This document shows, piece after piece, positions 19,869 through 56,666 of a stretch of 64,000 bases of DNA. The stretch is from an uncultured virus (IMG/VR IMGVR_UViG_2061766007_000036) (lineage: Duplodnaviria > Heunggongvirae > Uroviricota > Caudoviricetes): the IMG/VR virus record IMGVR_UViG_2061766007_000036; one strand, 5' to 3'. The position numbers and the translations under genes were made by a program. Position 1 is the stretch's first letter. Each line of letters begins with the position of its first letter. The notes below the pieces were generated by a model that saw nothing but the letters and a program-made list of their open reading frames with translations, had not been told where the DNA came from and made no database searches.

Positions 19869-19870
19869 GA

Positions 19871-21407: not shown

Positions 21408-21461
21408 TTTGTTTCTCCTCCGCTTTCGCGTAAATTTCCGGCTTAGCCAGCCGTGGGCATG

Positions 21462-21485
21462 AAAAAAGCACGATTGCTCGTGCTT
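21462..21485 (-). terminator. Intrinsic terminator-like hairpin after glycosyltransferase-like gene
   Basis: AAGCACGA-GCAA-TCGTGCTT then TTTT. Confidence 0.7.
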
Positions 21486-21488
21486 GAA

Positions 21489-22885: not shown

Positions 22886-22891
22886 GTTCTA

Positions 22892-24280: not shown

Positions 24281-24284
24281 TTGA

Positions 24285-25682: not shown

Positions 25683-25863
25683 CTCGCAGGGCGATAATAT
25701 TGCCGATCTCGTCGTTGTTGTCATGATGTCCTTCTATCTCCTCGATTTCCCGGATCGTGTCCCGGTACTGCTTCGCCAGGGCAGGCAGCGCCCGGCTGTC
25801 AGCGTCCTCCATGCTGGCATATAGGCGTGCTTCGAGTTCCTTCAGCTTGTCCAACCGGGCCAT
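25624..25863 (-). CDS. terS: Terminase small subunit (putative)
   Basis: Short helical ORF (L.ALAKQYR.TI.EI) overlapping terL start; GAGGAG RBS. Confidence 0.65.
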   Translation of the reverse strand: MARLDKLKELEARLYASMEDADSRALPALAKQYRDTIREIEEIEGHHDNNDEIGNIIALRDAHGEPGAVRPNRTAIPDD

Positions 25864-25906
25864 CCAAAAACTCCTCTCGTGTAAATCGGCGCTGGTNNNN
25901 NNNNNN

Positions 25907-42597: not shown

Positions 42598-42676
42598 ATA
42601 CGTTCCCTCCATAATTAAATGATGAAATAGCGAAGGGGAGGTTACCCTCCCCTTCTTTTAGTTTTAACAGGTGTAC

Positions 42677-43706
42677 TTACGATACGCCAATCGCAATCAG
42701 AGCGGACAGCGGGTAGTACACAATGACACCGGCGGTACGGGCTTCGCAGGGAACCGTGGTCTCGAGGTTGTGCACCTGCAGCGGGTACTGATAGAACGGC
42801 ATCGGGTTCTCGAGCGTCAGCTTCATGGGGTCGTTCTTGAACAGGAACGCAACACCAGAACCGTTGGAAGCCGCCGCATAGGGGTTGGTCTCCACGGAGT
42901 CGTTGTCGAGCTCGGCGGCGGAGATGATGTTCTTCAGATAGGGGCTGTGCTCCAGAACGAAGTCCTTCACCGTGATGGTGGTGTCGGGAATCCGACGGGT
43001 GGCGATGTCCATAAAGACCTCGGCGGGCAGGCACAGAGTGTCGGGTCTCTCCACGTTCTTCGTGGTACGAGCGACCTGCTTCTGCATTCCGTTGATGTCG
43101 GCGAGAATCTCGTCGGCAGTCTTTTCCGTCNNNNNNNNNNNNNNNNNNNNNNGCCGAAATGGTGAACAGAGGAATATTCTGCTGAGCAGACAGAACGCCG
43201 AGCAGGCCGGACTCGTCATCGCCTCTCCACGCAATCTTGTTGGTGGCGTTGTCGATGCTGTAACGGGCGGACTCAGCCTTGCGAGCGTCGAGGCTCTTGT
43301 TGGCGAGACGGGAAGCACGCATCTCCTGCGCAGAATAGCCATAGGAAGCACCGATGGACTTCACAAGGGCATAAGAGGGCTTACCCACAACGTCAGCCCG
43401 AGGCAGGTCGGTGCTGTAGTTGTCGATAATCTTCGCAATACCCTGCTTGTCGTAGGTGTAGTAGGTAATGCTCTCAGCACCGGGGTCAGCCTCGGAGCTG
43501 ATGGGGAAAAGGTTCAGAGCCGTAAACTCGGGATACTCTACGTCATAGCTCTTGCTCTTGACGTAGTCGAGCTCACGGGCGAAGAACACGGAAGCGTCCT
43601 CGGCACTGTCGAAACGGGTGCCGGCGCTTGCCATAATAGCGGCAGGGATGGAAGAATTCTTCAGAGTCCTTGCCTCAGTGCTATCAAAATGAGTATGCTT
43701 TTTCAT
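42677..43706 (-). CDS. Major capsid protein, DUF2184/encapsulin-like (frame break at gap 43131-43152 is an assembly artefact)
   Basis: FARELDY; DLPR.D; Y.YS.QE.RA; RPDTL.LP; GVIVYYP.S. Confidence 0.88.
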
Positions 43707-43744
43707 CTAGGTTGTCCTCCTTGTATTTTTCTCTTCTCTGTCGC

Positions 43745-44236
43745 TTACGCATTCTTCAGAATGAGCATAGCAACGCCGTTGGTGTCGACCTCGCTACCGA
43801 AGATAGCGGGAACCGCATCACCATCGGTGCTCGTGGGGCTGAAGAAACCGGCCTCATCACCGCTGTAAACGACGTAGGCGGCATCGCCGAACTTCGGGGT
43901 CTTGCCGGTCTTGACACGAACATAGACACGCCCCCAACGCATAACGCCGATGGCGGTCTTGTTCAGAATCTCGAGGTCGCCGTTGCGGTCGTTCTCACGG
44001 GTGCGGTTGTTCACGGTCACACCGAGGAACTTCTGAGAAGTGGCGGACGGTTTCATAATGGCACCGGGGTGAGCCACGGTGTCGCTGTCCACGTAGGTCG
44101 TAACGCCGATACCAAACAGCATCACATTGTCAGCGGCGCTGTTGATATAGGTGTTGATTTCGTAGGGAGCGAGGTCATAAATGCCGCCTGCGCAACCCCT
44201 AACAGTGTCAAATTTGTAAGTAGTCTGTGCACTCAT
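43745..44236 (-). CDS. Capsid decoration/cement protein
   Basis: MSAQT.Y...AG...D; FG.GV; FLGV; V.R.GRV.V; directly before DUF2184 capsid. Confidence 0.7.
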   Translation of the reverse strand: MSAQTTYKFDTVRGCAGGIYDLAPYEINTYINSAADNVMLFGIGVTTYVDSDTVAHPGAIMKPSATSQKFLGVTVNNRTRENDRNGDLEILNKTAIGVMRWGRVYVRVKTGKTPKFGDAAYVVYSGDEAGFFSPTSTDGDAVPAIFGSEVDTNGVAMLILKNA

Positions 44237-44250: not shown

Positions 44251-45894
44251 TTAGTTTTTATGCTGACGGCGAATCATGCGCTCTCTTGCGCTCTCTGCCG
44301 AATCAGTAGGTGTTTTGTCCGCAGAGTCCTTGTTGAACATCTGCTTTCTCTGAGAAGAAACGCCATCGCTTTTCTTCTCGTTCAGAGCCTCGACAGCACA
44401 GTCATAAGCCGCATCGATGTACGTATCAGACTTGCCATCCAGTCTCACATTGGGCTTCACTGCCTTGATGACCTTCTCCTTGGCATCACGGAGTTCCATG
44501 TACTCCAATCCGTCAAGGTTCAGTTCACGACCAAGCAGTCCGAGAGTTACTCTCTCACGAATCTCGTCTGCGGAATCGGTATGAATCGGCTTTTCTTCCT
44601 CTTCTTCCTCTTCCTCAAAGGCGAACTCATCCTCATCGAATTCCTGTTCTTCGAACGGGATTTCCTCTTCTTCCTCTACTACTTCTTCCTCAGCGTCGGT
44701 AGTAGGCTCTTCCTCCTCGACGGGCTCCTCTTCAACGACCTCTTCCTCTTCGATTTCCTCTTCAACAGGAATGTCGTCTTCGTCCTCGAGCAGGATTTCC
44801 TCTTCCTTCTCCTCCTCTTCCACGGGCACTTCCTCGTCGGCAGAATCGAAGTCCATCTTGGCAAGCAGTGTGTCGATGATATCAATATACATATCGATAT
44901 CCTCATCCTGCGACGCAATCTGAACCATCGCCTCTTTGCCGTTCTTGGGGTCGCCTGCGGAATCTCTCTTGTGCCTGCGCTCACGCAGGAACTCCATCTT
45001 GCCTTCGACAGTATCGGGCACTTCGATTTCCTCTTCAGCGTCCGCTTCGGTCTCCTCGGGCTCCTCAACAGGTTCCTCGACAACTTCCTCTTCGACGACT
45101 TCCTCCTCGACGGGCTCCTCAGCGGGCTCCTCGGCAGGAACTTCCTCGACGGCTTCTTTGACGACTTCCTCTTCAGCGTCCTTCTCGACTTCGGCGGGCT
45201 CTTCTACAGGCTCTTCGGTGTCTTCCATCTCGGCTCTCTTCGCTTTGTACTCAGCAATAGCCTGTTCCAGTTCCTCATCGCTGAGAACGCTGTCGGCACG
45301 GCGAGCACTCTTGAGATTTTTCACAGCCTTTCCTCCTCTTAGAATGGTTATAGAGTCACGACTATCTACATTCAGCCGTGCCTGCTCACCTGCTCTCGCC
45401 TGTCTGACAAGAGCAAGATGATTGATACGAATATTGCGCTGTACGGCATCGTAATGAACACCGTTCCACGTTCCGCCTGTCTCATCCAAGTCGAGATTGT
45501 AACCAAGGGAAAGTTCCTTCAATCCTCGCTCTTTCATGGCGTTAACATCGTGGATAATAATATCCGCTTTAACATCATTTCCCGAGCGAACTCCCTCAGA
45601 CAGAATCGTGCCAATTTGGTTTTCAGCGACATTTTCTTTCGTGATTAGCCCTGCTTCATGCGTAATGATAATGGGCTTGCCTTTGTACGAGGCTAAGCTC
45701 TCCGGGCTGAACACTTCCTGCGGTAACCGCAGTTCCCTTCTAATGCTTCCGTCCGGGTTCCTATACTCAAAGATACCCGTCGTAGTCAGAACAGGCTTGT
45801 CTTCCAAATACCCTTCATCTGTGAAAGATGCCCTCGTGATGGGCATACTGTCGAGCCGTATCACATTTTTCAGCACAGGTGTCGTAGTAATCAT
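44251..45894 (-). CDS. DUF2213-like prohead protease/scaffold with long acidic region
   Basis: EGYL...GIF.Y...RELR.P.EVF..ESL.S..GKP....H; ELS.GY; Q.NI..NH.ALV..ARAG. Confidence 0.88.
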   Translation of the reverse strand: MITTTPVLKNVIRLDSMPITRASFTDEGYLEDKPVLTTTGIFEYRNPDGSIRRELRLPQEVFSPESLASYKGKPIIITHEAGLITKENVAENQIGTILSEGVRSGNDVKADIIIHDVNAMKERGLKELSLGYNLDLDETGGTWNGVHYDAVQRNIRINHLALVRQARAGEQARLNVDSRDSITILRGGKAVKNLKSARRADSVLSDEELEQAIAEYKAKRAEMEDTEEPVEEPAEVEKDAEEEVVKEAVEEVPAEEPAEEPVEEEVVEEEVVEEPVEEPEETEADAEEEIEVPDTVEGKMEFLRERRHKRDSAGDPKNGKEAMVQIASQDEDIDMYIDIIDTLLAKMDFDSADEEVPVEEEEKEEEILLEDEDDIPVEEEIEEEEVVEEEPVEEEEPTTDAEEEVVEEEEEIPFEEQEFDEDEFAFEEEEEEEEKPIHTDSADEIRERVTLGLLGRELNLDGLEYMELRDAKEKVIKAVKPNVRLDGKSDTYIDAAYDCAVEALNEKKSDGVSSQRKQMFNKDSADKTPTDSAESARERMIRRQHKN

Positions 45895-46010: not shown

Positions 46011-46379
46011 TTACTTCCAAAACCCTCCGGTCTTGGCGAGAGCAATATACTGCTCTTCGTTCTTTACCCAATCGTTTTCGTCATCTTCCGCCATCTTTTC
46101 ACGTTCTTCTCCGCAGTCTTTGTACCGTCCGCTTTCCGGTTCTTTCCTCAGCCGTGCTGTAGCATCTCTCACAACTTCAGAAGGAAGTTCTTCCATGTCT
46201 ACGACCTCAAAGCGTCCGCTGTAATCCAACGGGTTGAACGCTTCGAGAAACGTAGGCCACAGAAGCACCATGCCCTCTTCTCCGACTGGTACTTCAGCGT
46301 AAATCCCGTTTTCTAACTGGAAATACACTTTTCCACGGTTGCCGTCCAAGTTGGCTCCAATAATTCTCTTGCTCTTCAT
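46011..46379 (-). CDS. Small acidic protein with own promoter; candidate immunity partner of 46459-48501
   Basis: AAGGAGG RBS, consensus promoter upstream, terminator downstream. Confidence 0.7.
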   Translation of the reverse strand: MKSKRIIGANLDGNRGKVYFQLENGIYAEVPVGEEGMVLLWPTFLEAFNPLDYSGRFEVVDMEELPSEVVRDATARLRKEPESGRYKDCGEEREKMAEDDENDWVKNEEQYIALAKTGGFWK

Positions 46380-46458: not shown

Positions 46459-48501
46459 TCAGTAATTCCTAATTATTCTAATACCCGCTTCGAGCAATTT
46501 TCTATATGATTCAGCACTAAGCGTATTATACGCTTCTTTGGAATGGAAATATACCGCTGTTGCGTCATGGTATGTAATCGTTCCATGATATTGGAGTTCG
46601 AGGTAACCCGTGCCAAAGCGTCTGTAGAAATCATCTACGCTTTTTATTTCGCCTCTTGCAAGCGCTTTGATTCCTTCAGCAGAGGAACTTCTGCACCATC
46701 CTGTAGATATCAGTCCGTGGTAGGTCGGATGGCTTCCATCAAGTCCAGGAACCATACTTCTTCCGTGAACAGGCCCCAAGGAGTCTAATGCGGTATAAGA
46801 AACTCTCCCGTCGAGACGTTCTTTGTCAAACGTGAATGTAACCCCACGATATCCGCCGTATCCGCTCAGTTCTTTGCGCTCTATTTTTTCCTGTGAGTTT
46901 AAATGACCGTACTTTTCCATACTTGCAGAGCGTGCTCTCGGTGGTGTACCAAAACCATTCTCAGACATCTCTCTTCGACTGCTCCAATCATGGCTTCCGT
47001 GACCCGTTTTCGTCTCGATACCGTTTTTGAAACGTTCTGCAACAATGTCGTTAACAACACTCGAAGGAGAGTCCATACTCAGTTCATTTCCTTCGATTAG
47101 CGCCTTTAGACTCTCGTTGGCACGTTCCAAAGTTTCTTCAGTAATTCCGTTATCACGAAGAAACGACTGTGTTCTGCTCTCTCGCATAAACTCGTCTCTT
47201 CGTTCATCGTACTTTGAAGTCATTGTAACAGGAGTCGCTGTTTCGTGCGGATGAAGTTCGTTGTTAATCTGTCGAAGAGAATCCCGATTAGCTTCCATTT
47301 CTTTTTCAATCTGTAAGCGAAGTGCTTCTCTTTCCGCTTCAGACATTGGAGTGGAATCCAATCTGTTCAGCATGTCTTCCATATCTTTAAGATTCGGGTC
47401 TTTCTCTACAAGTTTTGCCCCTTCCTTAGCACGCTCTTCGATTGCCACTTTTTCTCGTGCGATTCTCTCTTCTTCTGCTTTGCGTCGTAATTCCTCTTCT
47501 CTTGCTTTACGCTCTGCTTCCCGTTTCTCTCGCTCCTCTCTCTCTTTTCGTTCACGCTCTGCTTTTTCTCGTTCTCTTACTTCTTTTTCCGCCTTCCAAG
47601 TCTCTTTGTCCTTGAACTCTCCATCTTTGGGGGCATCAACAGACTCTGCTTTGCCAGTGGCAATCAGATGCGCAAGTCCTCCGGATTTGCCAGAGAAGTT
47701 CTCTGTCGGCTTGTCAGAATACCTTCCCTTGATATCTCCGCCCTCTTTCATAAACTTAGCGTCTTTATACTCGGGCGTTGTTATCTTCGTTCCCTCGGGC
47801 ATCCGCTCAATTAGTTCTTCTGCCTCTTTGTGGGCTTCTGTAGCCGATATTTCTCCTCTTGCGGCTCTATCGGCAATATCTTTTATTTCTTCTTTAATCC
47901 TATCCGATGTGCTTTTTACCGCACTCGTCTTTGACTCTTCTGTCTTCTTTTCCGCTTCTCTACGTGTTTCTGCGGCTTTTCGTGCTTCTTCCGCTTTTCG
48001 TGCTTCTTCAGCCTTCCGAGCCGTTTCCTTTCGTTCTTCCTCTCTTTTTCTGTACTCTTCTACTCTTCTTGCCCGTTCTTCTGTCTCTTTTTTTCTTGCT
48101 TCTTCCCGCTCTTTCTTGCGAGTCTCTTCAGCTTTCTTCTTTTCACGGGATTCTTTGGCTTTGGCGCTCTTTGTTTCCTTGCCCATCTTTTCCGCTTTCT
48201 TAGCGGCTTCTCTTATATCCGCTTTCGTCCCTGTGCGTTTCGCTTCTGTGGCTCTTTTCGCAAGATAATCATATCCTTTCTTAGAGCCCTGCCCACGGAA
48301 GATAGCCATACTGTCTTTGACATTCATTCCCGTCTCGGAATGATAAATTTCCCACGCCTCTGACGGTGTGCATTTATCGGGCAGGTCAATCCCCGCCTCT
48401 TCGCAAAGGTAATAAGGAAGGTGAAGAGAAGCGTCTCCACCATCCATATGCGAAACCAACCGTCTGCGTCGTCTGTCTTTGTATTGTGATATTTTGTCCA
48501 T
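46459..48501 (-). CDS. Leader-bearing putative virion cargo; charged coiled coil plus C-terminal DUF3626-like (ADP-ribosyltransferase-like) domain
   Basis: YKDRRRRRL leader; C-terminal RFK..IET.T..G...R...FG...KYG.L...YG...RVSYT..DS...YLELQYHG. Confidence 0.55.
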   Translation of the reverse strand: MDKISQYKDRRRRRLVSHMDGGDASLHLPYYLCEEAGIDLPDKCTPSEAWEIYHSETGMNVKDSMAIFRGQGSKKGYDYLAKRATEAKRTGTKADIREAAKKAEKMGKETKSAKAKESREKKKAEETRKKEREEARKKETEERARRVEEYRKREEERKETARKAEEARKAEEARKAAETRREAEKKTEESKTSAVKSTSDRIKEEIKDIADRAARGEISATEAHKEAEELIERMPEGTKITTPEYKDAKFMKEGGDIKGRYSDKPTENFSGKSGGLAHLIATGKAESVDAPKDGEFKDKETWKAEKEVREREKAERERKEREEREKREAERKAREEELRRKAEEERIAREKVAIEERAKEGAKLVEKDPNLKDMEDMLNRLDSTPMSEAEREALRLQIEKEMEANRDSLRQINNELHPHETATPVTMTSKYDERRDEFMRESRTQSFLRDNGITEETLERANESLKALIEGNELSMDSPSSVVNDIVAERFKNGIETKTGHGSHDWSSRREMSENGFGTPPRARSASMEKYGHLNSQEKIERKELSGYGGYRGVTFTFDKERLDGRVSYTALDSLGPVHGRSMVPGLDGSHPTYHGLISTGWCRSSSAEGIKALARGEIKSVDDFYRRFGTGYLELQYHGTITYHDATAVYFHSKEAYNTLSAESYRKLLEAGIRIIRNY

Positions 48502-48518
48502 TTAATCACCACACAGAA

Positions 48519-48544
48519 AGAGGGCTACCTTTCGGTAACCCTCT
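48519..48544 (-). terminator. Hairpin/terminator after 48559-48927
   Basis: AGAGGGTTACC-GAAA-GGTAGCCCTCT then TTCT. Confidence 0.6.
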
Positions 48545-48558
48545 CAGTAATCGGTTTA

Positions 48559-48927
48559 TTACTCGTCGTCTTCTGCGAACGCAATCCTCCACCGCAGATA
48601 CTTCTCATCGTCCTGCGTATCCTGCATAACAGTTCTGAGGCGCTCGCTCAGTTTCACGTCAAGTCCGTACCGCTTCTTGAGGTCTTCCTCAAGTTCCTCA
48701 ACACTTCTGTCTCTGAAGTAGTTTTCGGGAACAGCCGTTGCAATTGACAGGTCACTGTCTTCGGGAGTAATCGTGAACATTACCTTCTCGTAAATGTCCT
48801 TCTCCTCGTCTGTCATCTGCTTCCACTGTTCTCTGTGCCTCTTGTGGAGCTCCTGGTCGGCGAAGTCGAAACTCACCTTCGAGTCATCATAAGGCTCTTT
48901 CATCTTAAAAACATCAATTTCTGCCAT
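48559..48927 (-). CDS. Small acidic protein; candidate partner of 48943-49677
   Basis: AAGGAGG RBS within 15-nt gap; D/E-rich. Confidence 0.7.
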   Translation of the reverse strand: MAEIDVFKMKEPYDDSKVSFDFADQELHKRHREQWKQMTDEEKDIYEKVMFTITPEDSDLSIATAVPENYFRDRSVEELEEDLKKRYGLDVKLSERLRTVMQDTQDDEKYLRWRIAFAEDDE

Positions 48928-48942
48928 ATCGGTTCTTCCTCC

Positions 48943-49677
48943 TTATCTGTATCCTTTTCTGAGAAGTCTGTCTTTCGCTTCTTTTGTGGTTCTTCCGTGA
49001 TATACATTCCTCATGCTCGTGCTCTTTCCTCGCTTCTTGTCTCCCATGATATCCTTGCTTGCGGTCTTATTAAGGGATTTAACAGAAGCGGTGCTCTGTG
49101 CCATCTTCATAGCGTGGTTGTAGTACGCAGAGCCCTTCGTCATCTTTCCTTCTTTAACCATGCGGTCGATGACATCCTTGTTCCACGCCGTCTTGCGGTC
49201 AAGAGCTCTTTCTGCGCCCTTTTCTGAGCCCGTCATCTTGTTGAGTGTGTCGGTAATACGGCGAACCTCGTATCTGTCCTTATCCGCCTTTGCCTGCTCC
49301 AACCGCTGTTTCAGACCGTCATGCCATCCTTCGGGAATCTTCCGTCCGTGAGAATCAAGGATGTAATTTCCCTTGTCATCCTTCTTCCACAGTTTGTTCC
49401 CGAACTCGTCAACCGTCTGATGCCCGTTAATAATCTGAGCACGAGAAGTATACTTGGGAGCATTTCCCGACGTTCCTTTTGTTCCCGCTTTAAATCGGTC
49501 GTTCTCGATGCGGTAGGCGTTTCCACCGCCGGGAGCAGAGCCTCCTCGCACACCGGGAACACCTACGTGCCCCCAATGCCCGGAGCCAGGCCCTCCGTCT
49601 TTCCTTGGGGCTTCTTTGCTGTCAAGTCTCGCCTGTCTGCGTTTGTGATAGGCGATAATTACTTTCTTTTCGTCCAT
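48943..49677 (-). CDS. Leader-bearing basic putative virion cargo protein
   Basis: YHKRRQARLD leader; DGGPGSGHWGHVGVPGVRGGS motif; GGAGGAG RBS. Confidence 0.65.
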   Translation of the reverse strand: MDEKKVIIAYHKRRQARLDSKEAPRKDGGPGSGHWGHVGVPGVRGGSAPGGGNAYRIENDRFKAGTKGTSGNAPKYTSRAQIINGHQTVDEFGNKLWKKDDKGNYILDSHGRKIPEGWHDGLKQRLEQAKADKDRYEVRRITDTLNKMTGSEKGAERALDRKTAWNKDVIDRMVKEGKMTKGSAYYNHAMKMAQSTASVKSLNKTASKDIMGDKKRGKSTSMRNVYHGRTTKEAKDRLLRKGYR

Positions 49678-49736
49678 ATAGTCTCCTCCATAAGTTATCT
49701 TTTTTGCACGATAACGCTGAAGGGACTGTTTCCGTT

Positions 49737-50564
49737 TTAACTTGTAGCGTTATCGCCGTAATACCTGTTTACTATCGTTTTTAGCACTGAATCAAGGTGC
49801 TTTAGTGCTCCATCATGAAGTTCCTGCGGAACGCCGTAGAAGTATTCTGCAACGCCGCCCGCAATTGCGCCTGTCGTATCGCAGTCACCGCCAATGTACA
49901 CGCAGTTCCTTATCGCATCTTCGAAGCTCTCGCTCTCGAAGAAACACACAAGAGCCTGTGGCACGCTGTACGGAGCCCATTCTCTAAACTCGGTGTCTCC
50001 TATTGCCTTCTTGTACGTTCTGCGCAAGTCTTCTACATGCATGTCAGCAATCTCGGGGTAATACCTTTCCTCAATCATCTTGCGAATCTGTTCTTTGGTA
50101 TGACCTTTCTTTGCGTACCAACACGCCATTGCCGTGGCTTCCGCCGCCTTCAACCCTTCGGGGTGGTCGTGGGAAATGACCGTCATGTCGTGCACCATCT
50201 TCTTGAGTTCTTTCACACTGTTCGCATATCTCGCAACAGGCGAAATCCTCATCGCCGCCCCGTTCCCCAAACTGTTCAACGACTGTGGGTCTTCCGCAAA
50301 AATCCATCGAAAGAATCTCGCTCCGTACCCGCAATAAGGGTAACACTGTCCAACAGCCTGCATCGTCTGAATCGTTTTCTCCTGCAAGTCGCTGTAGTCA
50401 CCATCAGCATTCATCAGTGTCATCGCCACGGCACACGTCATCACAGTATCATCCGTAAAATTGTGTCCCTTGCCGAAGAACTTGAAGTCTTTCTTCCGCC
50501 TGTTGTTGAACTCATACTTGCTTCCCGCAATGTCTCCAATAATCGCTCCTATCAAATGCATCAT
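49737..50564 (-). CDS. ADP-ribosylglycohydrolase (ARH/DraG family)
   Basis: GAIIGDIAGS; FTDDTVMT; GNGAAMRISP; SH.HPEG; GGDCDT.GAIAG. Confidence 0.93.
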   Translation of the reverse strand: MMHLIGAIIGDIAGSKYEFNNRRKKDFKFFGKGHNFTDDTVMTCAVAMTLMNADGDYSDLQEKTIQTMQAVGQCYPYCGYGARFFRWIFAEDPQSLNSLGNGAAMRISPVARYANSVKELKKMVHDMTVISHDHPEGLKAAEATAMACWYAKKGHTKEQIRKMIEERYYPEIADMHVEDLRRTYKKAIGDTEFREWAPYSVPQALVCFFESESFEDAIRNCVYIGGDCDTTGAIAGGVAEYFYGVPQELHDGALKHLDSVLKTIVNRYYGDNATS

Positions 50565-50589
50565 CTTCCTTTCTCAGTTCGTCCTCTAT

Positions 50590-50618
50590 ATTATAACATA
50601 TGTTGACAGAGTTGTCAA
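50590..50618 (-). promoter_or_regulatory. sigmaA/70 consensus promoter for ARH gene, with palindrome GTTGACA-N4-TGTCAAC over -35
   Basis: TTGACA (50618-50613), 17 nt, TATAAT (50595-50590), TG at extended -10. Confidence 0.85.
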
Positions 50619-50627
50619 CCGTGTTCT

Positions 50628-50876
50628 TTATCTATTCTTCTTTCTCCACTCTTCCAAGTACTTGTTCAAGTCATCTGGCTTCGGGTATGCCGTCCCAAAC
50701 TTCTCGTATAACTCTCTGTGAAAATTCAGACTGAACAGGTTTTCCCCGTTCTCGTCCGGGTTTTCTTCGTCCATAGAAATGTCCATCCACCCGCACACGG
50801 GGCAGTCTCCGTTGCTGTTGTGGTATTTAAACTCATGTTTCCCACATACCGGGCATTTGTGTCTTCTCTCTATCAT
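50628..50876 (-). CDS. CPCC-like cysteine-rich protein; candidate immunity partner
   Basis: CPVCG...CPVCGW...NP....G.N..SLN; ATGA overlap with upstream toxin-like gene. Confidence 0.75.
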   Translation of the reverse strand: MIERRHKCPVCGKHEFKYHNSNGDCPVCGWMDISMDEENPDENGENLFSLNFHRELYEKFGTAYPKPDDLNKYLEEWRKKNR

Positions 50877-51571
50877 TTTTTCTTCTTTCCTCCTTTTCCT
50901 CCGCTTCCTCCGCTTTTCTTAACACGTCCGTCGTCGCCCTTGTCCTCTTCCAATTTGTCCTTGTAATACTGCATTGCCAACGGTAACCAATTCTTATTAA
51001 TCCCTTTTGACGGGTCTCGAGAATCCTTCAAATACTTTGCCTGCATTCCTGTTGCAATCTTCATTCCTGGATATCCTTTTGCAAAGAAGCCTGTAGTCGT
51101 GTCGAATCTCACTACGCCGGTCACTTCGTGTCCCCACAAATCCGCTTTGAACGTGTATCCCCATATCTTGGGACTTGTGGGTTGCTGAAGAAAGTCATCG
51201 ACAGCCTTCGCATATTCTTCCTTGCTCATACCCTCGAATATGGGTTCGTGCTGTGCGTGTATGCCGTAGTGTTCGTCCTCTAAATACCTGTTCGCAAACC
51301 CAACGCAAGACGGATTGGCTCCTCGTGGGGTAATCTGCATTCCTTCTTGCGGATGTTTTTCGGTTTCTCCGTTCTTCTGTTCCTCTTCACGCTTTTCTTT
51401 GTTCTCTGCTTGTTCGCTGTCTGGAACCTCGCCAAACTGCCCGTTCTTTTCACGAGGTTGGCTGTCGTTGTAATCCAACCTCATCTGCCTGCGTTTGCGA
51501 TAGGCTTCTACTATAGCATAATCACGGAGCCTTTGCTTTACTCGTTCCTTGTATCTTTCGACTATTCCCAT
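50873..51571 (-). CDS. Leader-bearing cargo with RNase-toxin-like C-terminal domain
   Basis: Leader twice; QPR..NGQFGE; GF.....H...H....EEY...DFL..P...GY...VRFD..T..F..G.P...I.T...YY. Confidence 0.55.
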   Translation of the reverse strand: MGIVERYKERVKQRLRDYAIVEAYRKRRQMRLDYNDSQPREKNGQFGEVPDSEQAENKEKREEEQKNGETEKHPQEGMQITPRGANPSCVGFANRYLEDEHYGIHAQHEPIFEGMSKEEYAKAVDDFLQQPTSPKIWGYTFKADLWGHEVTGVVRFDTTTGFFAKGYPGMKIATGMQAKYLKDSRDPSKGINKNWLPLAMQYYKDKLEEDKGDDGRVKKSGGSGGKGGKKKK

Positions 51572-51704
51572 TTCTCACAAAATCTCCTTGCTCAGATTTT
51601 GCCATATCTCCAATTGTCGTTATCTCTCCGACGAATTTCCCTTCAATCCACGCTTCCGCCTTCCCATTCTTCTCGTTTCTTCTAATTTCTACCATTGGAT
51701 TCAC
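51522..51704 (-). CDS. Small protein coupled to ART-like gene; candidate partner
   Basis: Start overlaps stop of 51701 gene; EAW..GK.VGEI.T.GD. Confidence 0.5.
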   Translation of the reverse strand: MNPMVEIRRNEKNGKAEAWIEGKFVGEITTIGDMAKSEQGDFVRNGNSRKIQGTSKAKAP

Positions 51705-52663
51705 GGCTCCTTGAAGATTACCTTTGTTCTGTTTAAAACGATAATGTAATTGGACGACTCAACGTGAATGGCATCATATCCTAGTAACGTGGCTGAAACT
51801 CCAACGTCTCCTTTCATCCCCCGTTCACGCATCTCTCTTCCAATCTCATTGTACGTACCTATTTTTGCGTCTGCGCTCATTGTAAATGTCTCAATGTGCG
51901 ACTTGGCTCCACTAAAGGAATACTTGATAGACTCCGCTGTTGTCCTAAGTTCTTTCATTCCTTCGTTGCCAAGTTCTCTTTTTACTACAGATATCTCCTC
52001 TTTACTCGGATGCCCAAGTCCGACTTGCGATTGCAGAAAAGAACGAACAGCCCGCTCTTTGTCTCCGCTTAGTCCCTTGTTTTTAATATATGATTCCACC
52101 ATACGAGATTTTTCTTCGTCGGAAGCATATTGTCCTCCGCTTTTCTTCCCATTTAGAATCATGTAATCTCTGATTTCGTTCTTTATACCGTCGCTCAGAT
52201 TCCCGTTCATGTCAACGCATCCATACATCCCTTGCCCGTAGGCAGAACCGCCTTCTGAACAATCGACATACCATTTTCCGTCGTATAATTCTCTACGGTA
52301 TGCGTCCAACGTTTCTTGGTCTGCCGCAGAATATGTTCTCTGCGCAACGAGCCCCTTCCCGCCGTTTGCTTCTTTTACGGCATCCTCAAATTCTTTTGCC
52401 GAAACAACCTTCGGCTTCCCGTCGAACCCTTGCGCATTAATTGCGTCGTCTATCGCAAAAGAGAACTCGTCGCTCCTCCTTTGCCACGTGCTTGATATGT
52501 CCTTCCCTTGAGCGACCGTTCCTTCTCTCGCTCCGTCTTTTTCGCTGTCAGCAACCTCCCCAAACCTTCCGTTCTCGTCTCTAGGTTGGTCTGGAGAGTA
52601 GTCTTTATTGAAACTAGAGAGTCTCTTTTCTCGCCTTTCTCTATATCTTTCGACTATACCCAT
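51701..52663 (-). CDS. Leader-bearing cargo with ADP-ribosyltransferase-like domain
   Basis: MGIVERYRERREKRL leader; QPRDENGRF; GFDG.P.VV...QRT...G..YGQGMY...LGYDAI.V...Y..VLNRT. Confidence 0.6.
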   Translation of the reverse strand: MGIVERYRERREKRLSSFNKDYSPDQPRDENGRFGEVADSEKDGAREGTVAQGKDISSTWQRRSDEFSFAIDDAINAQGFDGKPKVVSAKEFEDAVKEANGGKGLVAQRTYSAADQETLDAYRRELYDGKWYVDCSEGGSAYGQGMYGCVDMNGNLSDGIKNEIRDYMILNGKKSGGQYASDEEKSRMVESYIKNKGLSGDKERAVRSFLQSQVGLGHPSKEEISVVKRELGNEGMKELRTTAESIKYSFSGAKSHIETFTMSADAKIGTYNEIGREMRERGMKGDVGVSATLLGYDAIHVESSNYIIVLNRTKVIFKEP

Positions 52664-52704: not shown

Positions 52705-54842
52705 TTATTTATCTAATCTGTACTTCCCGTCGGGCTTGGCTTTCAGTCCATTAAACCGTTTGTTAAGCAGTTTCCCGTTCAGAACGCCGATGCTGTAGGC
52801 AAACGGTCTGAACATCTTATCCTGCCCGAGGTAAGCGAGCTGTTTCTGTGTTAAGAACTGAGCGGCACTCATTTCGAGCGTTCCGTTGCCCGCTACGCAC
52901 TGCGGTCTTCCATCGAACTTCGTGCAAAGGTAAATATAAGGGGCGTTGCCGTTAGGCTCTTTCTCTCCTCTTCCAAGGTAGATAAGTTCCTTCGGTCGAA
53001 TATTGAATTCCTCTTCCGTCTCACGGAAAGCGGCTTCTCTCGGAGTCTCTCCTTCTTCAACCATTCCTCCCGGCCCNNNNNNNNNNNNNNNNNNNNNNNN
53101 NNNNNATCCGTCCTCGTTTAATAACGAGAACTCCCACAGATTCTCTCGGCTTGGCTTTATCGTCCCCTATCTTCTCTTCTGTCCTCAGATTCGATTTAAC
53201 GGGCTTTTCTTCCACCAAGGCATCTTCATTCTCTTCCTCGGAATATTCTCCCTCGGGTCGTTTGGTGGCTTCTGGTGCGTTAGAAGGCGTTCCTCCAATG
53301 TCTCCTTCGACTTCTTCGGGAGCACCATCGGGAGCGTCGATTGGAGCAGCTGCTTCCATCGCCTCTGCGGGAGCGGGCATACCGCCCGTTGCGCCCGTGC
53401 CTAACATCCCACCGCCCTGCTGTGGCGTAAACGGAGGCTTGCCGTCGGGGAACAGTTCCTCGGGCGTGTAGTTGTTGAGAACAGACTCAACGTCAAACTG
53501 CTCGCTCGAAGCAAGAGCCTCACGAATTTCGTTGTTGTCAATAGCCCCCATAGAAGCATAAAGCCCTGCGGTATCCGCACGGACTTTTTCCACGTTGGCT
53601 CTCACGAGTTCAACGTTCAGTGCCTCTTCTTCAGTCAGAGACCATAGCGGGTTGAAGACGATTTTGATTTTCGGAATGTGCTCAATTTCGCCCGTTGCCA
53701 ATCCCGCTTGGAATATGATAGAGAGCAGATAACGAAGGTTGGCTTTCACCATTCTTCTCTGAATCCGCTCCACGTAGTTGTACCAGTTCTCAAGGTCGGA
53801 CTTTCCTGTGGCATTCATGCCCGCAGGAGAACGTCCGAAAAGAATCGTCTGAGGAATCGATGTGATTGCACTCAGATAATTGCAGGTAGAATCAAGAACC
53901 TGTGAAACGCCCGTGAATGAGAATGTTCTGAAATCGAATTCTTCACCGTCGTGGTCTACAACGACCGTGTTAAGAAGTCCCCGTGACATGTCGATTGTCT
54001 CGAGACGTTTCAGAACTCTGTCCTCGCCCTGTTCCGTAGCCAACTCAAGGGCAAGGTCTTTCATCTTGTAAACAGGCTGTACGGAGCGGTCAAGCATCTT
54101 TACGGCGCTTCCGCTTGCAATCTCTGTATCACGAATCGCTCGGTGCACTCTGATATATTCGGGAATGCCCCACATCTGATACAGACTGCTCGTCGTGTTC
54201 TCGGGCAGTGCTCCGTTCCTAAAAACGAGGCATCTGCTGTCGTGCACTCTGAACGTTCCATAGCGGGAAGTGATGTCGTAAAACTCGGGCATACCAAGCC
54301 GGGAACCCTGTGTTCTGAACGGGTCGTTCGGCGAGTAGTTGTACATCGACAGATAGTCGGGCTGAACCATACTGCGGTCATACACACGAATGTCGTCGAT
54401 AGATTTGATGTTCTTCCAATCCAACGGTTTCGACAGGTCGTCGTTCCCGTCATTGATGAGCATTACGGCAACGGAGCCACCATAAAGGCGAGCCCATTNN
54501 NNNNNNNNNNNNNNNNNNNNNNNCTTCCCATTCAAGTTCGTCAAGCGCCTCTTTGTAGAAGTCGATTGTCTTCTTGTTCGTAATGCCCTCGAGTTCGAAT
54601 CCGTTCTTTAGCGCTTCCTCAGCGGGCGTGTCAATTATCTTGGCAAACAGCCCATTGGATTCATAGTACGTAGACAGCGTGGAGTCCTCTACGATGGGTT
54701 CTCCCGCATACTGGTAATGCTCTGTGATGTCTCTATCGGTTCCGTACTTGCTTAGCAGGTTGTAATAGCCGTCAGCACGGTACGGTCTAATCGCTTTCTT
54801 GGCATTCGCCTCAACGATTTCTTGGAAGTTACTCTCAGCCAC
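52705..54842 (-). CDS. DUF1073-type portal protein with C-terminal Nudix hydrolase (one gene across two short gaps, inferred)
   Basis: Y..NGL..KIID.PAEE; WARLYGG; G.PE.Y; LFGRSPAGMNATG.SD..N.Y; then VGVLVI [gap] GGMVEEGETPREAAFRETEEEF Nudix box. Confidence 0.8.
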
Positions 54843-54867: not shown

Positions 54868-55269
54868 TCAGCGCTTATCTACCCACTTGAGATACTCGTT
54901 GACGATTTGTTTAACGGTATAATAATGTTTTGGCTTTCGCCATATTCTCTCTCCGCTCGTGTATATGCTCCTCACATTACAGTCTGACAGATAAACGCTT
55001 TTCTGCTTATCTGTCTCGTGATGTTCTGCAACAACCGCCATTGCGGATTTCCCTCTTTTCCCGAAATCTTTCACCATTCTTTCAATGGCGACTTTCTGTC
55101 CAAGAGGAAGTTCTTTCTCCCCGTATTTGACTTCGACAATAATGTAGGCTCTGTTCCTGTATTCCAACAGAGCGTCCAAGTCAGTGAACGTCGTTCCTTT
55201 GTATTCTATTCCTCGGAAGTCGATTATCTGACTTGCCCGTTCCGGATGAAGAATCGCATCGTCCATCAT
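54868..55269 (-). CDS. PD-(D/E)XK-like nuclease-fold protein
   Basis: TD.D.LLE....IIVEVK......GQ..A.ER pattern. Confidence 0.55.
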   Translation of the reverse strand: MMDDAILHPERASQIIDFRGIEYKGTTFTDLDALLEYRNRAYIIVEVKYGEKELPLGQKVAIERMVKDFGKRGKSAMAVVAEHHETDKQKSVYLSDCNVRSIYTSGERIWRKPKHYYTVKQIVNEYLKWVDKR

Positions 55270-56666
55270 AGCATGTTGGCAAGGCTGAACCTTGTGCGTG
55301 TCTCAATCTCAGCAAATCCGTTTGCGGAAGCGTCGACCATATCCTTGAATTTCCCTTCGGGGAAGTTCTCCAACTGAGTAAGGTACATCTCATTCCACGG
55401 GGCAATCAGAATGTCGAAGTTTCCTGCCTGCCACTGCGCCGCCATCGGTTCTGCACGGGATTCCTTGGAACCCGACTCGGGTACTGCTCTAATGGCATAA
55501 CCCGACAGTTCCTTAATGTACGTCTGTGCCTGTTCTTTTCCCGCCTGCCCCGGGTCTTGCGGAATGCGAATCATAACCTTGTTCCCGAAACGCAGACGGT
55601 CAAGTTCTGCGGTCATCTTAATCGTCTTTCTGACATCTGATGCCGCCATCTGTCTGTTTATAACATCAGCGACAACATACCGACCGTTTTTCCTTTTCCC
55701 CATCAAAACACCTGCTGTATATGCAGGGTCTCCTGCGGATGTCTTTTCCGTTGCGGCTAAGTCCCAACAGCGTACCCACACGAGCACGTCGTCGGGGATG
55801 AGGCGGATGTAATTCCCTACCTGTTCTTTCTTGAAGAACATTCCCGCCGCTTGCTTTATTTTCCAGTTTCCATAGAGCAGTCGTTCACGCTCAATAATCG
55901 GAAGCGCTTTAAGGTTGGCAAGGTAAGACGGGTTTGTCTTCATCAGAATCTCGTTGTCCTGCAAAGTGGCGCACACAAACGTAGCGGAACGAGGTTCCGC
56001 TCTTTCTTCGGGCGTTACAAGATTGAACTGTTCCCACAATTCCTGTTTTGTGTTTGCCCAATACAGCGTCTCGTCTCTCCGAATGAAATAACGGAGTTTT
56101 CCGCTTCTCTCGGGGATGGGATATCCTGTATCTTGGTCAATCCACCACTCTATGAACTCTGCCACCCACGAATCAGCGTCGGGGTTGCAGGTCGCTCTAA
56201 CAAACGGTTTAACACCGCATGTGGAACGGTTACGGGAGAGCATATAGAAGAACTGCTGTGATGTGAAATGCGTTAATTCGTCGTATAACAGTCCGCAAAT
56301 CTGAGCACCTTGGTAGCTCTGCAACTCTTCATCTCGCTCGATGTGTTTGAAGTTAATCTTGCTGACCAACTTCCCGTTAGCGTCAGAGAACGACCACTCG
56401 CCTTTTGAGGCTTTGTAAAGCGCTCCCTTGATTCCGCTGTACATCTCAAAGGACGTATCGTAAAGACCGCCCTGTGCAAAAATCTGATTGTAGTTCTTAC
56501 GGAATATCGTGCATGAGTAGCCCGGAACGTTCTTATATCTCAACGCCGCCAACAGCAACGCATAGGTTTTTCCCGCTCCTGCGGCTCCTCCGTAGATGAC
56601 GATATCACCGGGTGATGCAAGGAACCGTTCCTGTGCCCCTTTCTGAGGTCTAAGTACGGTCGCCAT
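55266..56666 (-). CDS. terL: Terminase large subunit (Terminase_6-like)
   Basis: YGGAAGAGKT; YDELTHF; ATCNPD; WDLAAT; PQDPGQAGK; FP.G..KDMVDA. Confidence 0.95.
   Translation of the reverse strand: MATVLRPQKGAQERFLASPGDIVIYGGAAGAGKTYALLLAALRYKNVPGYSCTIFRKNYNQIFAQGGLYDTSFEMYSGIKGALYKASKGEWSFSDANGKLVSKINFKHIERDEELQSYQGAQICGLLYDELTHFTSQQFFYMLSRNRSTCGVKPFVRATCNPDADSWVAEFIEWWIDQDTGYPIPERSGKLRYFIRRDETLYWANTKQELWEQFNLVTPEERAEPRSATFVCATLQDNEILMKTNPSYLANLKALPIIERERLLYGNWKIKQAAGMFFKKEQVGNYIRLIPDDVLVWVRCWDLAATEKTSAGDPAYTAGVLMGKRKNGRYVVADVINRQMAASDVRKTIKMTAELDRLRFGNKVMIRIPQDPGQAGKEQAQTYIKELSGYAIRAVPESGSKESRAEPMAAQWQAGNFDILIAPWNEMYLTQLENFPEGKFKDMVDASANGFAEIETRTRFSLANML

What the first reader, a model, noticed from the sequence alone, without database searches (positions are those of the whole stretch)
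46459..52663. Four head-module genes share an N-terminal YxxRRxxRL...[RHN]xD leader but carry unrelated C-terminal domains: candidate capsid-loading system
Seen: the N-termini are ISQYKDRRRRRLVSHMDGG (48501), IIAYHKRRQARLDS..RKDGG (49677), VERYKERVKQRL..VEAYRKRRQMRLDY (51571, motif twice) and VERYRERREKRLSSFNKDY (52663). The 51571 and 52663 leaders are similar at DNA level (ATGGG.ATAGTCGAAAGATA; QPR..NG.FGEV.DSE). Downstream sequences are unrelated. All four genes lie between portal and the DUF2213 protease/scaffold. Known: T4 internal proteins use a short cleavable capsid-targeting sequence, and MuF-type head proteins carry polymorphic toxin domains. Inference: this basic leader is a portable prohead-targeting signal that lets stand-alone effectors be packaged and injected, without a MuF carrier.
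Basis: partly seen in the sequence, partly recalled or inferred. Interest (0 to 1): 0.92.

Follow-up and report, generated by a model that had tools for sequence, protein, structure and literature searches.

The report
Shared address tag on phage-head cargo
Four unrelated proteins encoded beside the head-assembly genes of a gut phage start with the same short arginine-rich helix, which resembles a helix in the phage's own scaffold-protease family and probably directs them into the capsid for delivery with the DNA.

Summary
Four minus-strand genes between the portal and the DUF2213 protease-scaffold begin with h-x-x-Y-[KR]-x-R-R-x-x-R-L. There are five copies, and a profile of the helix finds no other match in the window.

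The leader has two parts:
- **Helix.** It is specific to a small clade of FP_Brigit-like phages. Ten of 72 related head modules carry 1-4 such genes, always upstream of the protease, on many different C-terminal domains. The same helix sits just after the protease domain in most DUF2213 proteins of leader-free relatives.
- **Junction.** QPRxxNGxFGEV in P3 and P4, and GPGSGHWGHxGxPGxxGGS in P2, are general inter-domain motifs of phage polyvalent proteins and of portal-fused effectors.

In leader-bearing phages the scaffold copy of the helix is degenerate and the scaffold tail is very acidic (net -48 to -92). The C-domains of P4 and P1 occur elsewhere fused to MuF proteins, and that of P3 fused to a portal.

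Best reading (about 0.55): a scaffold-derived docking helix loads stand-alone effectors into the prohead, like the capsid-targeting signals of T4 and P1. Packaging, cleavage and injection are inferred, not shown. MuF absence is only partly linked: 5 of 9 threshold-scored leader modules keep MuF.

The parts
51701..52663 (-). P4, 320 aa. Leader helix aa 4-18, junction DYSPDQPRDENGRFGEV aa 21-37, then a C-domain aa ~50-320 that is common at the C-terminus of MuF proteins and may have an ART-like fold.
   Evidence: 190 homologues of aa 50-320 at E<=1e-3; by my count 83 of the 120 listed carry PF04233. AF2 model pLDDT 86. VIA-align Z 5-6 to ADP-ribosyltransferase folds.
52529..52663 (-). P4 leader (aa 1-45): arginine-rich helix plus QPR junction.
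   Evidence: (26.1 bits). A 91% identical leader stands on the unrelated JAB-like protein P0002.
50873..51571 (-). P3, 232 aa. Two tandem helix copies, junction RLDYNDSQPREKNGQFGEV, and a C-domain that is fused to the portal in other phages.
   Evidence: phrog_15528 'portal protein' positions 643-789 of 794, E 1.2e-14. C-terminal end of the FP_Brigit portal, 32% identity, E 3e-7.
51425..51571 (-). P3 leader (aa 1-49), helix duplicated.
   Evidence: 21.2 and 24.6 bits..
48943..49677 (-). P2, 244 aa, net charge +26. Helix, then the junction KDGGPGSGHWGHVGVPGVRGGS, then a C-domain with no relatives found.
   Evidence: 22.8 bits. The junction equals the portal-fusion linker of L001 and L003. No homologues of the C-domain.
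49525..49677 (-). P2 leader (aa 1-51).
46459..48501 (-). P1, 680 aa. Helix, HMDGG, a long K/E-rich middle part, and a C-domain (aa ~440-680) that is related to the C-terminal end of lactococcal and streptococcal minor head (MuF-like) proteins.
   Evidence: 18.0 bits. tblastn gave 8 phage records, E 1e-9 to 1e-19; in TP901-1 the match lies at the C-terminal end of ORF33 'minor head protein'. The Atlas gives DUF3626 as a lead only.
48436..48501 (-). P1 leader (aa 1-22).
44251..45894 (-). DUF2213 head-maturation protease fused to a scaffold-like tail, 547 aa. The tail (aa 181-547) is 36.5% D+E, net charge -91.
   Evidence: PF09979, E 9.6e-34. phrog_530, E 1.5e-79. Charge. Model: beta-rich domain 20-165, isolated helix 206-224, disordered acidic stretches, helical C-terminal part.
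45223..45279 (-). Post-protease helix of the scaffold-protease (DEELEQAIAEYKAKRAEME, aa 206-224). It is the degenerate counterpart of the AIEEYKARRAQRL helix of leader-free relatives and the presumed source of the cargo leader.
   Evidence: (window copy -1.1 bits; 30 of 53 other scaffolds score 10 bits or more).
52705..54842 (-). Portal (Phage_portal_3/DUF1073 type) with a Nudix domain at its end. The reading frame is interrupted by masked bases at 54499-54523 and 53077-53105.
   Evidence: Relatives encode portal-Nudix as one protein.
49737..50564 (-). ADP-ribosylglycohydrolase, no leader. Possibly an antidote for an ADP-ribosylating cargo (inference).
   Evidence: PF03747, E 6.6e-35. phrog_6572.
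50628..50876 (-). Cys-rich CPCC zinc-ribbon protein, no leader.
   Evidence: PF14206, E 1.1e-9.
48559..48927 (-). 122-aa ORF, no leader, function unknown.
   Evidence: weak phrog_22556 only.
46011..46379 (-). 122-aa ORF, no leader, function unknown.
55266..56666 (-). Large terminase.
42642..44236 (-). Cement protein (43745-44236) and major capsid protein (42642-43706, frame broken by masked bases 43131-43152).

Best explanation
P1-P4 are capsid-internal cargo proteins, and at least some are effector enzymes. Each carries a two-part N-terminal tag.

Part 1 is an arginine-rich amphipathic helix, h-x-x-[YF]-[KR]-x-R-R-x-x-R-[LI], followed by [RK]-h-D. It is a copy of the helix that sits just after the protease domain in most DUF2213 scaffold-protease proteins of this phage family. 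I infer that it docks the cargo into the assembling prohead core. It would do so through whatever partner that scaffold helix normally binds: the unusually acidic scaffold tail, the portal or the coat.

Part 2 is a junction motif (QPRxxxGxF, GPGSG..GHxGxPGxxGGS or another type). The same motifs separate domains in portal-fused effectors and in polyvalent proteins. I infer that this is where the cargo domain is freed or held flexibly, so that it can leave with the DNA.

Shown: the motif, its portability, its restriction to head modules, its likeness to the scaffold helix, and the carrier-fused relatives of three C-domains.

Inferred: binding, packaging, cleavage and injection.
For: 1. Five helix copies stand at four N-termini within 6.2 kb, and no other profile hit above 4.7 bits occurs in the window.
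2. The leader is portable. P0002 has a 91% identical leader on a JAB-like domain. Among 72 distinct related head modules, 9 carry 1-4 ORFs with the helix within the first 60 residues of the stop-to-stop ORF. All lie upstream of the protease. A tenth module, L157, has a variant below threshold. Six of these modules (L103/L104, L106, L115, L147, L161, L177) were not used to build the profile.
3. The tagged proteins are diverse. They include two ADPrib_exo_Tox ADP-ribosyltransferases (E 3e-28 and 1.5e-29) and proteins of 941-1329 aa.
4. The profile was built from leaders only, yet it hits 22 DUF2213 proteins internally at 10 bits or more, just after the protease domain. An example is KAIEEYKARRAQRLAAKAD at 23 bits. 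The reversed database gave 0 hits at 8 bits or more.
5. Leader ORFs and an intact scaffold helix never occur together: 0 of 9 leader modules against 27 of 63 others score 10 bits or more. Scaffold tail net charge is -48 to -92 in leader modules. In the others it is -5 to -43, with one at -75, and that one is L157 with the variant leader.
6. The C-domains are carrier-fused elsewhere: P4 to MuF, P1 to the TP901-1 ORF33 type minor head protein, P3 to the FP_Brigit portal through the junction RMDFNEADHPRDENGQFAEG.
7. The same junction links an unrelated HK97-type portal to an ART domain in L010.
8. Genes in the block that would be expected to stay in the producing cell (ADP-ribosylglycohydrolase, CPCC) lack the leader.
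9. Precedent exists. N-terminal capsid-targeting signals are described for T4 IPIII and P1 DarB (PMC9024508, passages read).
Against: - There are no virion proteomics, no processing data and no binding test for any leader-bearing phage. The nearest isolate, FP_Brigit (63% protease identity), has no leader genes.
- The leader modules form one or two clades on the protease tree: 1 change, support 77/85, with two starred subclades. The links with acidic tails, the degenerate scaffold helix and MuF loss therefore rest on one or two evolutionary events, not on 9-10 independent ones.
- The helix also occurs inside large leader proteins (L026 residue 462, L044 residue 394). It occurs at the C-terminal end of two ORFs (L115 117 aa, L157 671 aa). 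It is therefore not strictly an N-terminal signal.
- AF2 gives the P4 helix only pLDDT ~50.
- Junction motifs occur beside four different portal families and at least two protease families (S77, DUF2213). That argues against a single prohead protease reading them.
- P2's C-domain has no known carrier-fused relative.
Confidence: 0.55

Rival explanations
1. The helix plus [RK]-h-D is only the recognition or cleavage site of the DUF2213 protease. It marks where the scaffold-protease cuts itself and where cargo polyproteins are cut, and it plays no part in recruiting proteins to the prohead.
For: The motif stands at a domain boundary in the scaffold-protease, flanked by disordered linkers. It also stands at internal domain boundaries of the 941-1329 aa leader proteins.
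Against: A cleavage site at residues 1-20 of a stand-alone protein would only remove a short peptide, which has no evident use unless that peptide did something first. Tandem duplication of the helix occurs in 6 of 19 leader proteins; that suits avidity better than cleavage. In leader phages the scaffold's own copy is degenerate, which is odd if it were the enzyme's self-processing site. This reading can hold together with targeting, as for the T4 signal.
Confidence: 0.15
2. The arginine-rich helix binds nucleic acid. Either the proteins ride into the capsid on the DNA, as basic internal proteins do, or they act on RNA or DNA in the cell without being packaged.
For: The helix is strongly basic: net +3 to +4 in the first 20 residues. 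P2 as a whole is +26.
Against: The same helix occurs in scaffold-protease proteins, which are expected to leave before DNA enters. Its Y, RR, R and L positions and the following [RK]-h-D are conserved, not only its charge. P4 is net -5 and P1 net +1 overall. The link with acidic scaffold tails points to a protein partner.
Confidence: 0.1
3. The shared 5' ends are cassette boundaries. Homologous stretches let C-terminal modules be swapped by recombination, as in polymorphic toxin loci. On this view the peptide is a passenger, or a remnant of a duplicated scaffold segment.
For: The P3 and P4 leaders are alike at the DNA level. The leader proteins of relatives form a mosaic of partial similarities. 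P0002 has the P4 leader on another domain.
Against: P1 and P2 share the motif only at the protein level, with conserved key residues and different codons. That shows selection on the peptide. The motif is kept in 10 modules with protease N-domain identities down to about 71%. This reading explains the spread of the tag, not why it is retained, and it is compatible with the main reading.
Confidence: 0.07

Closest known systems
T4 capsid targeting sequence of internal proteins IPI-III and Alt (Mullaney and Black 1996, cited in PMC9024508; reviews listed, listing only)
   Same: A short N-terminal peptide is shared by several otherwise unrelated head-internal proteins, including an ADP-ribosyltransferase. 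In T4 it loads them into the prohead core and is removed by the prohead protease. The proteins are then injected with the DNA.
   Different: No sequence relation is evident. Here the tag is a 15-18 residue arginine-rich helix, often duplicated, that resembles a helix of a DUF2213 scaffold-protease fusion. The head module is of another type (DUF1073 portal, DUF2213, DUF2184 coat). Cleavage and targeting are not shown here.
P1 DarB N-terminal packaging signal (PMC9024508; abstract and passages of sections 3.3-3.4 read)
   Same: In P1 the N-terminal 30 residues suffice to send a reporter into the capsid, and the cargo is an anti-defence enzyme.
   Different: P1 has one signal on one very large protein with a stepwise Dar assembly. 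Here a family of 1-4 small to large proteins per phage share one tag.
MuF polymorphic toxins (Jamet et al. 2017, PMC5576092; passages read)
   Same: Variable C-terminal toxin or effector domains are encoded next to the portal gene. The P4 and P1 C-domains are homologous to domains carried on MuF proteins.
   Different: P1-P4 have no MuF domain. The window and 3 further leader modules, plus L157, lack a MuF gene altogether, while 5 leader modules keep one.
Phage polyvalent proteins and portal- or MuF-fused effectors (Iyer et al. 2017, PMC5512222; abstract and passages read)
   Same: The domain repertoire is the same: ART, Nudix, JAB/RadC-like, zincin-like. The genomic setting among virion genes is the same. 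The junction motifs of P2-P4 are the ones that separate domains in such proteins.
   Different: Here the domains are unbundled into separate genes, each with its own tag. The passages I searched in that paper do not mention the junction motifs or an N-terminal tag. Its supplementary files on an FTP site were not seen.
Targeting of the HK97 protease into proheads by a terminal segment (Duda, Oh and Hendrix 2013; seen only as reference 35 in PMC9024508, content recalled, paper not held)
   Same: A short segment of a maturation protease acts as an encapsidation signal.
   Different: That is a different protease family and a different position in the protein. I know of no report that cargo proteins copy that segment.

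Membership tests
T4-type capsid-targeting-sequence cargo | Short N-terminal peptide shared by several unrelated proteins encoded with the head genes | tested here: met
T4-type capsid-targeting-sequence cargo | Peptide is sufficient and necessary for loading into proheads | not testable with these tools
   Needs reporter fusions and deletions.
T4-type capsid-targeting-sequence cargo | Peptide is removed by the prohead protease at a consensus site | not testable with these tools
   A conserved [RK]-h-D follows the helix, but no cleavage data exist.
T4-type capsid-targeting-sequence cargo | Sequence relation to the T4 signal | tested here: inconclusive
   tblastn of P4 found no match in 50,697 phage records. 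A peptide this short would not be found that way in any case.
MuF polymorphic toxins | N-terminal MuF domain (PF04233, PF06152 or relatives) | tested here: not met
   No Pfam family for P1-P4 at E<=0.01, and none of these at E<=5. tblastn with a relative's MuF protein found nothing in the window. phmmer found none at 1e-5.
MuF polymorphic toxins | Variable C-terminal domain of a kind carried by MuF proteins | tested here: met
   P4. P1. Not shown for P2 or P3.
Polyvalent proteins (Iyer et al. 2017) | Two or more effector domains in one polypeptide | tested here: not met
   P2, P3 and P4 have one domain after the leader. P1 has a long K/E-rich part and one C-domain. Larger leader proteins of relatives (941-1329 aa) may qualify.
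Polyvalent proteins (Iyer et al. 2017) | Encoded among virion genes and sharing the inter-domain junction motifs | tested here: met
Portal-fused effectors | Portal domain in the same polypeptide | tested here: not met
   P1-P4 are separate ORFs with their own starts. Only the Nudix part adjoins the portal.
ADP-ribosyltransferase superfamily (P4 C-domain) | ART fold | tested here: inconclusive
   VIA-align Z 4-6 to many ART-fold chains (diphtheria toxin catalytic domain, MbcT, ParT, RES, PARPs), all below the Z 8 caution line. Foldseek found nothing at E<=1e-3. The Atlas gives ART-PolyVal as a weak lead.
ADP-ribosyltransferase superfamily (P4 C-domain) | Catalytic motif (R-S-E or H-Y-E) | not tested
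   Invariant R109, Y111, Y147 and E258 were noted in the alignment but were not mapped on the fold.
DUF2213 head-maturation protease | Match to PF09979 above the gathering score | tested here: met
   117.2 bits against a cut-off of 22. phrog_530, E 1.5e-79. Protease activity itself is an annotation and was not tested.

The most novel reading that the evidence does not exclude
Phage head cargo is addressed by a two-layer code.

The first layer is a lineage-specific docking helix that the cargo genes copied from the scaffold-protease. The scaffold's own copy then decays and its tail becomes strongly acidic, handing the docking site over to the cargo.

The second layer is a set of near-universal junction peptides, above all K-Y-S-P-D-Q-P-R-D-x-x-G-R-[FW]-G-x-G-G-G. 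This peptide stands 2-8 times per protein between the domains of polyvalent proteins. It occurs beside at least four portal families and two protease families, so it would be read by something common to all of them. Candidates are self-cleavage, a host factor, or the portal channel during ejection.

If so, any protein could be loaded into, and released from, such capsids by adding about 45 residues.
Probability: 0.25. Interest if true: 0.85.

Novelty: new variant of a known kind. Interest (0 to 1): 0.72.

Why it matters
Capsid-targeting signals have been shown by experiment only in a few model phages, T4 and P1. How the many MuF-, portal- and polyvalent-type effectors of uncultured phages reach the capsid and leave it is open.

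This locus offers three things:
- A compact tag, recognisable by sequence, with a candidate origin in the scaffold-protease helix.
- A natural comparison, since sister phages carry the same domains fused to the portal or to MuF.
- A concrete prediction: a basic helix pairs with an acidic scaffold, and leader genes and an intact scaffold helix exclude each other.

The tag would allow packaged effectors of gut phages to be listed from sequence alone. It could also serve to load proteins into capsids. The widespread junction peptides seen on the way appear undescribed in the texts I could search.

Tried and rejected
- **Chance or low complexity:** rejected.
- **Secretion signal:** the leader has no hydrophobic stretch after the arginines (read from the sequences), so I did not pursue Sec or Tat.
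- **Word-indexed search with the P4 leader:** only 2 proteins, so too insensitive.
- **P4 against the phage collection by tblastn:** no match.
- **Sequence search of solved structures with P4 and P1:** nothing meaningful.
- **Foldseek of the P4 model:** nothing at E<=1e-3.
- **Pfam at E<=5 on P1-P4:** no credible family.
- **P2 C-domain:** no relative in phages and none among longer proteins.
- **A junction motif at the MuF-to-domain joint of P4's relatives:** 0 of 62. The junction is therefore not needed for MuF fusions.
- **Complex prediction of leader with the DUF2213 protein:** The partner of the helix therefore stays open.
- **AF2 model of the DUF2213 protein alone:** shows the helix as an isolated element, but no coordinates were available to look for contacts.
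- **Whole genome of the window:** not held.
- **Literature:** 'DQPRD' anywhere gave 0 papers. 'QPRD' with 'phage' gave 16 papers, none relevant by title (listing only). 'DUF2213' gave 7 papers, none on mechanism by title or abstract start (listing only). PMC5512222 holds no 'linker' or 'interdomain', and its 'cleavage', 'junction' and 'motif' passages do not describe these peptides. PMC5576092 holds no 'linker', 'cleav' or 'conserved motif'. Supplements of both papers were not seen.
- **Earlier notes of this scan:** none for this genome or by sequence.

Full report
**What is in the window.** All relevant genes lie on the minus strand. In order they are:
- large terminase (55266-56666);
- portal of the Phage_portal_3/DUF1073 type (53057-54842), adjoined by a Nudix domain (52705-53064);
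- P4 (51701-52663, 320 aa);
- P3 (50873-51571, 232 aa);
- a CPCC zinc-ribbon protein (50628-50876);
- an ADP-ribosylglycohydrolase (49737-50564);
- P2 (48943-49677, 244 aa);
- a 122-aa ORF;
- P1 (46459-48501, 680 aa);
- a second 122-aa ORF;
- the DUF2213 protease-scaffold protein (44251-45894, 547 aa);
- a cement protein and the major capsid protein.

Masked bases interrupt the portal, the portal-Nudix joint and the capsid gene. The nearest isolated phage is Faecalibacterium phage FP_Brigit, with 63% identity in the protease domain and the same head-module order.

Y7, R10, R14 and L15 are invariant. P3 carries the motif twice. The P3 and P4 leaders are also alike as DNA. A loose pattern found the five copies and two other six-frame hits in 64 kb. 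An 18-residue profile built from 24 helix copies scored the window's five copies at 18-26 bits, and nothing else in the window exceeded 4.7 bits. The reversed six-frame database of 1.43 million residues gave no hit of 8 bits or more, against 67 forward. After the leaders the four proteins are unrelated by BLASTP. None matches a Pfam family.

**The leader has two parts.** The second part is a general junction, not something specific to these proteins. I searched a profile of the P3/P4 leader (49 positions) against 1.84 billion representative proteins.
- It found 144 proteins at E<=1e-3.
- Only four match over the whole leader: P4 and P3 themselves; P0002, a 232-aa protein with a 91% identical leader on an unrelated JAB-like domain; and P0148, which is P3-like.
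- All the others match only the stretch K-Y-S-P-D-Q-P-R-D-x-x-G-R-[FW]-G-x-G-G-G.
- Of 142 proteins examined, 135 have two to eight copies. Median spacing is 235 residues. The first copy lies within the first 70 residues in 89 of 140.
- Pfam on 66 of them gave the repertoire of phage polyvalent proteins: ADP-ribosyltransferases of several families, Zeta toxin, ParB-like nucleases, GNAT, 2H phosphoesterases, InPase, topoisomerase IB, SprT-like peptidases, MuF and an XkdF-type protease.
- None of 85 motif copies in 29 of these proteins lies inside a Pfam match.

The same junction joins an HK97-type portal to an ADPrib_exo_Tox domain in L010. It also joins the Nudix and P3-like domains of the FP_Brigit portal, as RMDFNEADHPRDENGQFAEG.

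P2 carries another junction, DGGPGSGHWGHVGVPGVRGGS. This one links the domains of the 851-1137 aa portal fusions of close relatives. It recurs, once or twice per protein, after short N-terminal helices or between domains, next to Mu-type and T4-type portals.

**Three of the four C-terminal domains are carried by virion anchors elsewhere.**
- P4 residues 50-320 have 190 relatives at E<=1e-3. By my count 83 of the 120 listed are 410-560 aa proteins with a MuF domain (PF04233), and 2 have PF06152. A minority are stand-alone proteins without the leader.
- The P4 model (pLDDT 86) has a helix at 4-18, a disordered stretch to about residue 60, and a domain with modest likeness (Z 5-6) to ADP-ribosyltransferase folds and to a cyanophage pre-ejectosome chain. 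That is a lead only.
- P1 residues 440-680 match the C-terminal end of 'minor head proteins' of lactococcal and streptococcal phages, for example TP901-1 ORF33.
- P3 matches the end of a 'portal protein' family (phrog_15528) and of the FP_Brigit portal.
- P2 has no relatives.

**The first part, the helix, belongs to one lineage and comes from the scaffold-protease.** I fetched head modules related by the DUF2213 protease domain: 80 loci from viral contigs and 80 from metagenome contigs. Some were the same contigs twice.

I kept modules with a whole scaffold and at least 5 kb upstream, and removed duplicates. That left 72 distinct modules.
- Nine, the window included, have one to four ORFs with the helix (10 bits or more) within the first 60 residues of the stop-to-stop ORF. 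All of these ORFs lie upstream of the protease.
- A tenth module, L157, has a variant leader below that score, followed by an LHPRGKGGKF junction.
- Six leader loci (L103/L104, L106, L115, L147, L161, L177) were not used to build the profile.
- The tagged proteins range from 214 to 1329 aa. They include two clear ADP-ribosyltransferases and form a mosaic of partly shared modules.
- Six of 19 have the helix in tandem.
- After the helix comes [RK]-h-D and then one of several junctions. One of these is a W-[IV]-T-[IV]-x-G-x-H-[VI]-x-[IL]-D-x-x-G module, which MAFFT places over the HPRDENGRF motif.

The profile was built from leaders only. Even so, it hit 22 DUF2213 proteins internally at 10 bits or more, always just after the protease domain. 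The stretch L-S-P-E-E-L-x-x-A-I-E-x-Y-K-A-R-R-A-x-R-[LIM] is conserved through most of the family. In the AF2 model of the window's protein the corresponding segment (residues 206-224) is an isolated helix between disordered linkers.

**A reciprocal pattern.**
- No leader module has a scaffold helix of 10 bits or more: 0 of 9, and the window's copy scores -1.1. Among the others, 27 of 63 do.
- The scaffold tails of leader modules have net charges of -48 to -92, and the window is the extreme. The others run from -5 to -43, except L157 at -75, which on inspection carries the variant leader.
- A MuF gene is present in 62 of 63 leader-free modules but in only 5 of 9 leader modules. The window, L034, L037, L161 and also L157 lack one.

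These links are striking but not independent. On a tree of the protease domain the leader modules form two well-supported subclades that may be one clade (1 change, support 77/85).

**How it most likely works.**

Shown:
- a conserved, portable helix at the start of unrelated proteins encoded only in the head module;
- its likeness to a helix of the protein that builds and then digests the prohead core;
- junction peptides shared with covalently anchored effectors;
- effector-type domains whose relatives ride on MuF or the portal.

Inferred:
- The helix docks the proteins to the prohead core through the partner of the scaffold helix. The very acidic tail is the obvious candidate for a helix with four to five arginines.
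- The protease then clears the scaffold, and the junction lets the domain be released or move freely.
- The proteins leave with the DNA, as shown for T4 internal proteins and Alt and for P1 DarB (PMC9024508, passages read).
- The ADP-ribosylglycohydrolase without a leader would fit an antidote that stays in the producing cell.

**Points against, and rivals.**
- There are no particle or cleavage data.
- The helix is sometimes internal or C-terminal, so it behaves as a docking motif rather than a strict N-terminal signal.
- The junctions occur with different portal and protease families. A single prohead protease can hardly be their reader.

The rivals are a pure protease site, nucleic-acid binding, and a recombination boundary. 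Each explains part of the data. None explains why the tag stands at the very start of single-domain proteins, why it is duplicated, and why it is exclusive with the scaffold's own copy.

**Comparison with what is known.** The system works like the T4 and P1 capsid-targeting signals. It shares domains and junctions with MuF toxins (PMC5576092) and polyvalent proteins (PMC5512222). It is not a member of the MuF or portal-fusion classes, because the defining carrier domain was tested and is absent.

In the texts I could search I found no description of the helix, of its relation to DUF2213 proteins, or of the junction peptides. The supplements of the two key papers were not seen.

Two earlier notes of this scan on other phages describe a 'header tag' before cargo modules and [RK]xD linkers on a portal. 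They agree in kind, but they are unchecked AI notes and not independent evidence.

**Verdict.** This is a new variant of a known kind, with interest about 0.72.

Noticed in passing
window 10916-25724, with 10-N runs at 4291-4300, 4795-4804 and 25897-25906: The window looks like joined contigs. The stretch at 57-61% G+C (about 10-26 kb) encodes a second, unrelated siphovirus-type structural module: terminase 24285-25724, portal 22892-24280, protease 22133-22885, capsid 20014-20931, tape measure 15444-17387, Dit 14713-15447 and tail proteins. The FP_Brigit-like phage with the finding begins after the 10-N run at 25897-25906.
   Followed up: partly
window 53077-53105 and 52705-53064: The first Nudix strands are read in the portal frame and the Nudix box in another frame, across a 29-base masked run. 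Relatives encode portal-Nudix as one protein. Whether the window has a real frameshift cannot be told.
   Followed up: partly
proteins P0123-P0263; loci L010, L012, L024: The peptide K-Y-S-P-D-Q-P-R-D-x-x-G-R-[FW]-G-x-G-G-G stands 2-8 times per protein, always between Pfam domains, in polyvalent proteins of 105-3849 aa. It also joins portals to effector domains. What reads it is unknown, and I found no description of it.
   Followed up: partly
loci L013-L022; L001, L003, L041-L057: A second junction peptide, G-G-P-G-S-G-[HN]-W-G-H-x-G-R-x-G-x-R-G-G-S, occurs after short N-terminal helices (there acidic, not basic) or up to four times inside portal fusions of up to 1905 aa. It is found next to Mu-type, T4-type and DUF1073 portals.
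   Followed up: partly
L026:7077-9899, L034:5743-6927, L037:5561-6514, L044:5881-8832: A third module follows the helix in relatives: D-W-[IV]-T-[IV]-x-G-T-H-V-[LM]-[IV]-D-[DE]-x-G. MAFFT aligns it over the HPRDENGRF junction, so the two may be versions of one element.
   Followed up: no
L001:4133-7540, residues 1002-1015: The short Pfam family DUF7211 (PF23847, 25 positions) matches Y-G-V-P-G-M-K-W-G-E-H-K-G inside a portal fusion (E 0.0046, below its cut-off). It may be a fourth junction type.
   Followed up: no
L115:4387-4737 and L157:531-2543: The arginine-rich helix stands at the C-terminal end of a 117-aa ORF just before the protease gene and of a 671-aa ORF before the portal gene. The tag is therefore not always N-terminal.
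   Followed up: no
window 49737-50564: An ADP-ribosylglycohydrolase without a leader lies among the tagged genes, two genes downstream of P4, whose fold may be ART-like. This could be an enzyme-antidote pair.
   Followed up: no
L013:1392-5168 and L022:189-3863: Intein and homing-endonuclease domains interrupt large head-module proteins (a T4-type portal in L022) in the T4-like contigs that carry the GPGSG junction.
   Followed up: no
window 44251-45353 (residues 181-547 of the DUF2213 protein): The scaffold tail has 36.5% Asp+Glu and net charge -91. That is the most acidic of 72 related modules, with two long poly-acidic stretches predicted as disordered.
   Followed up: yes
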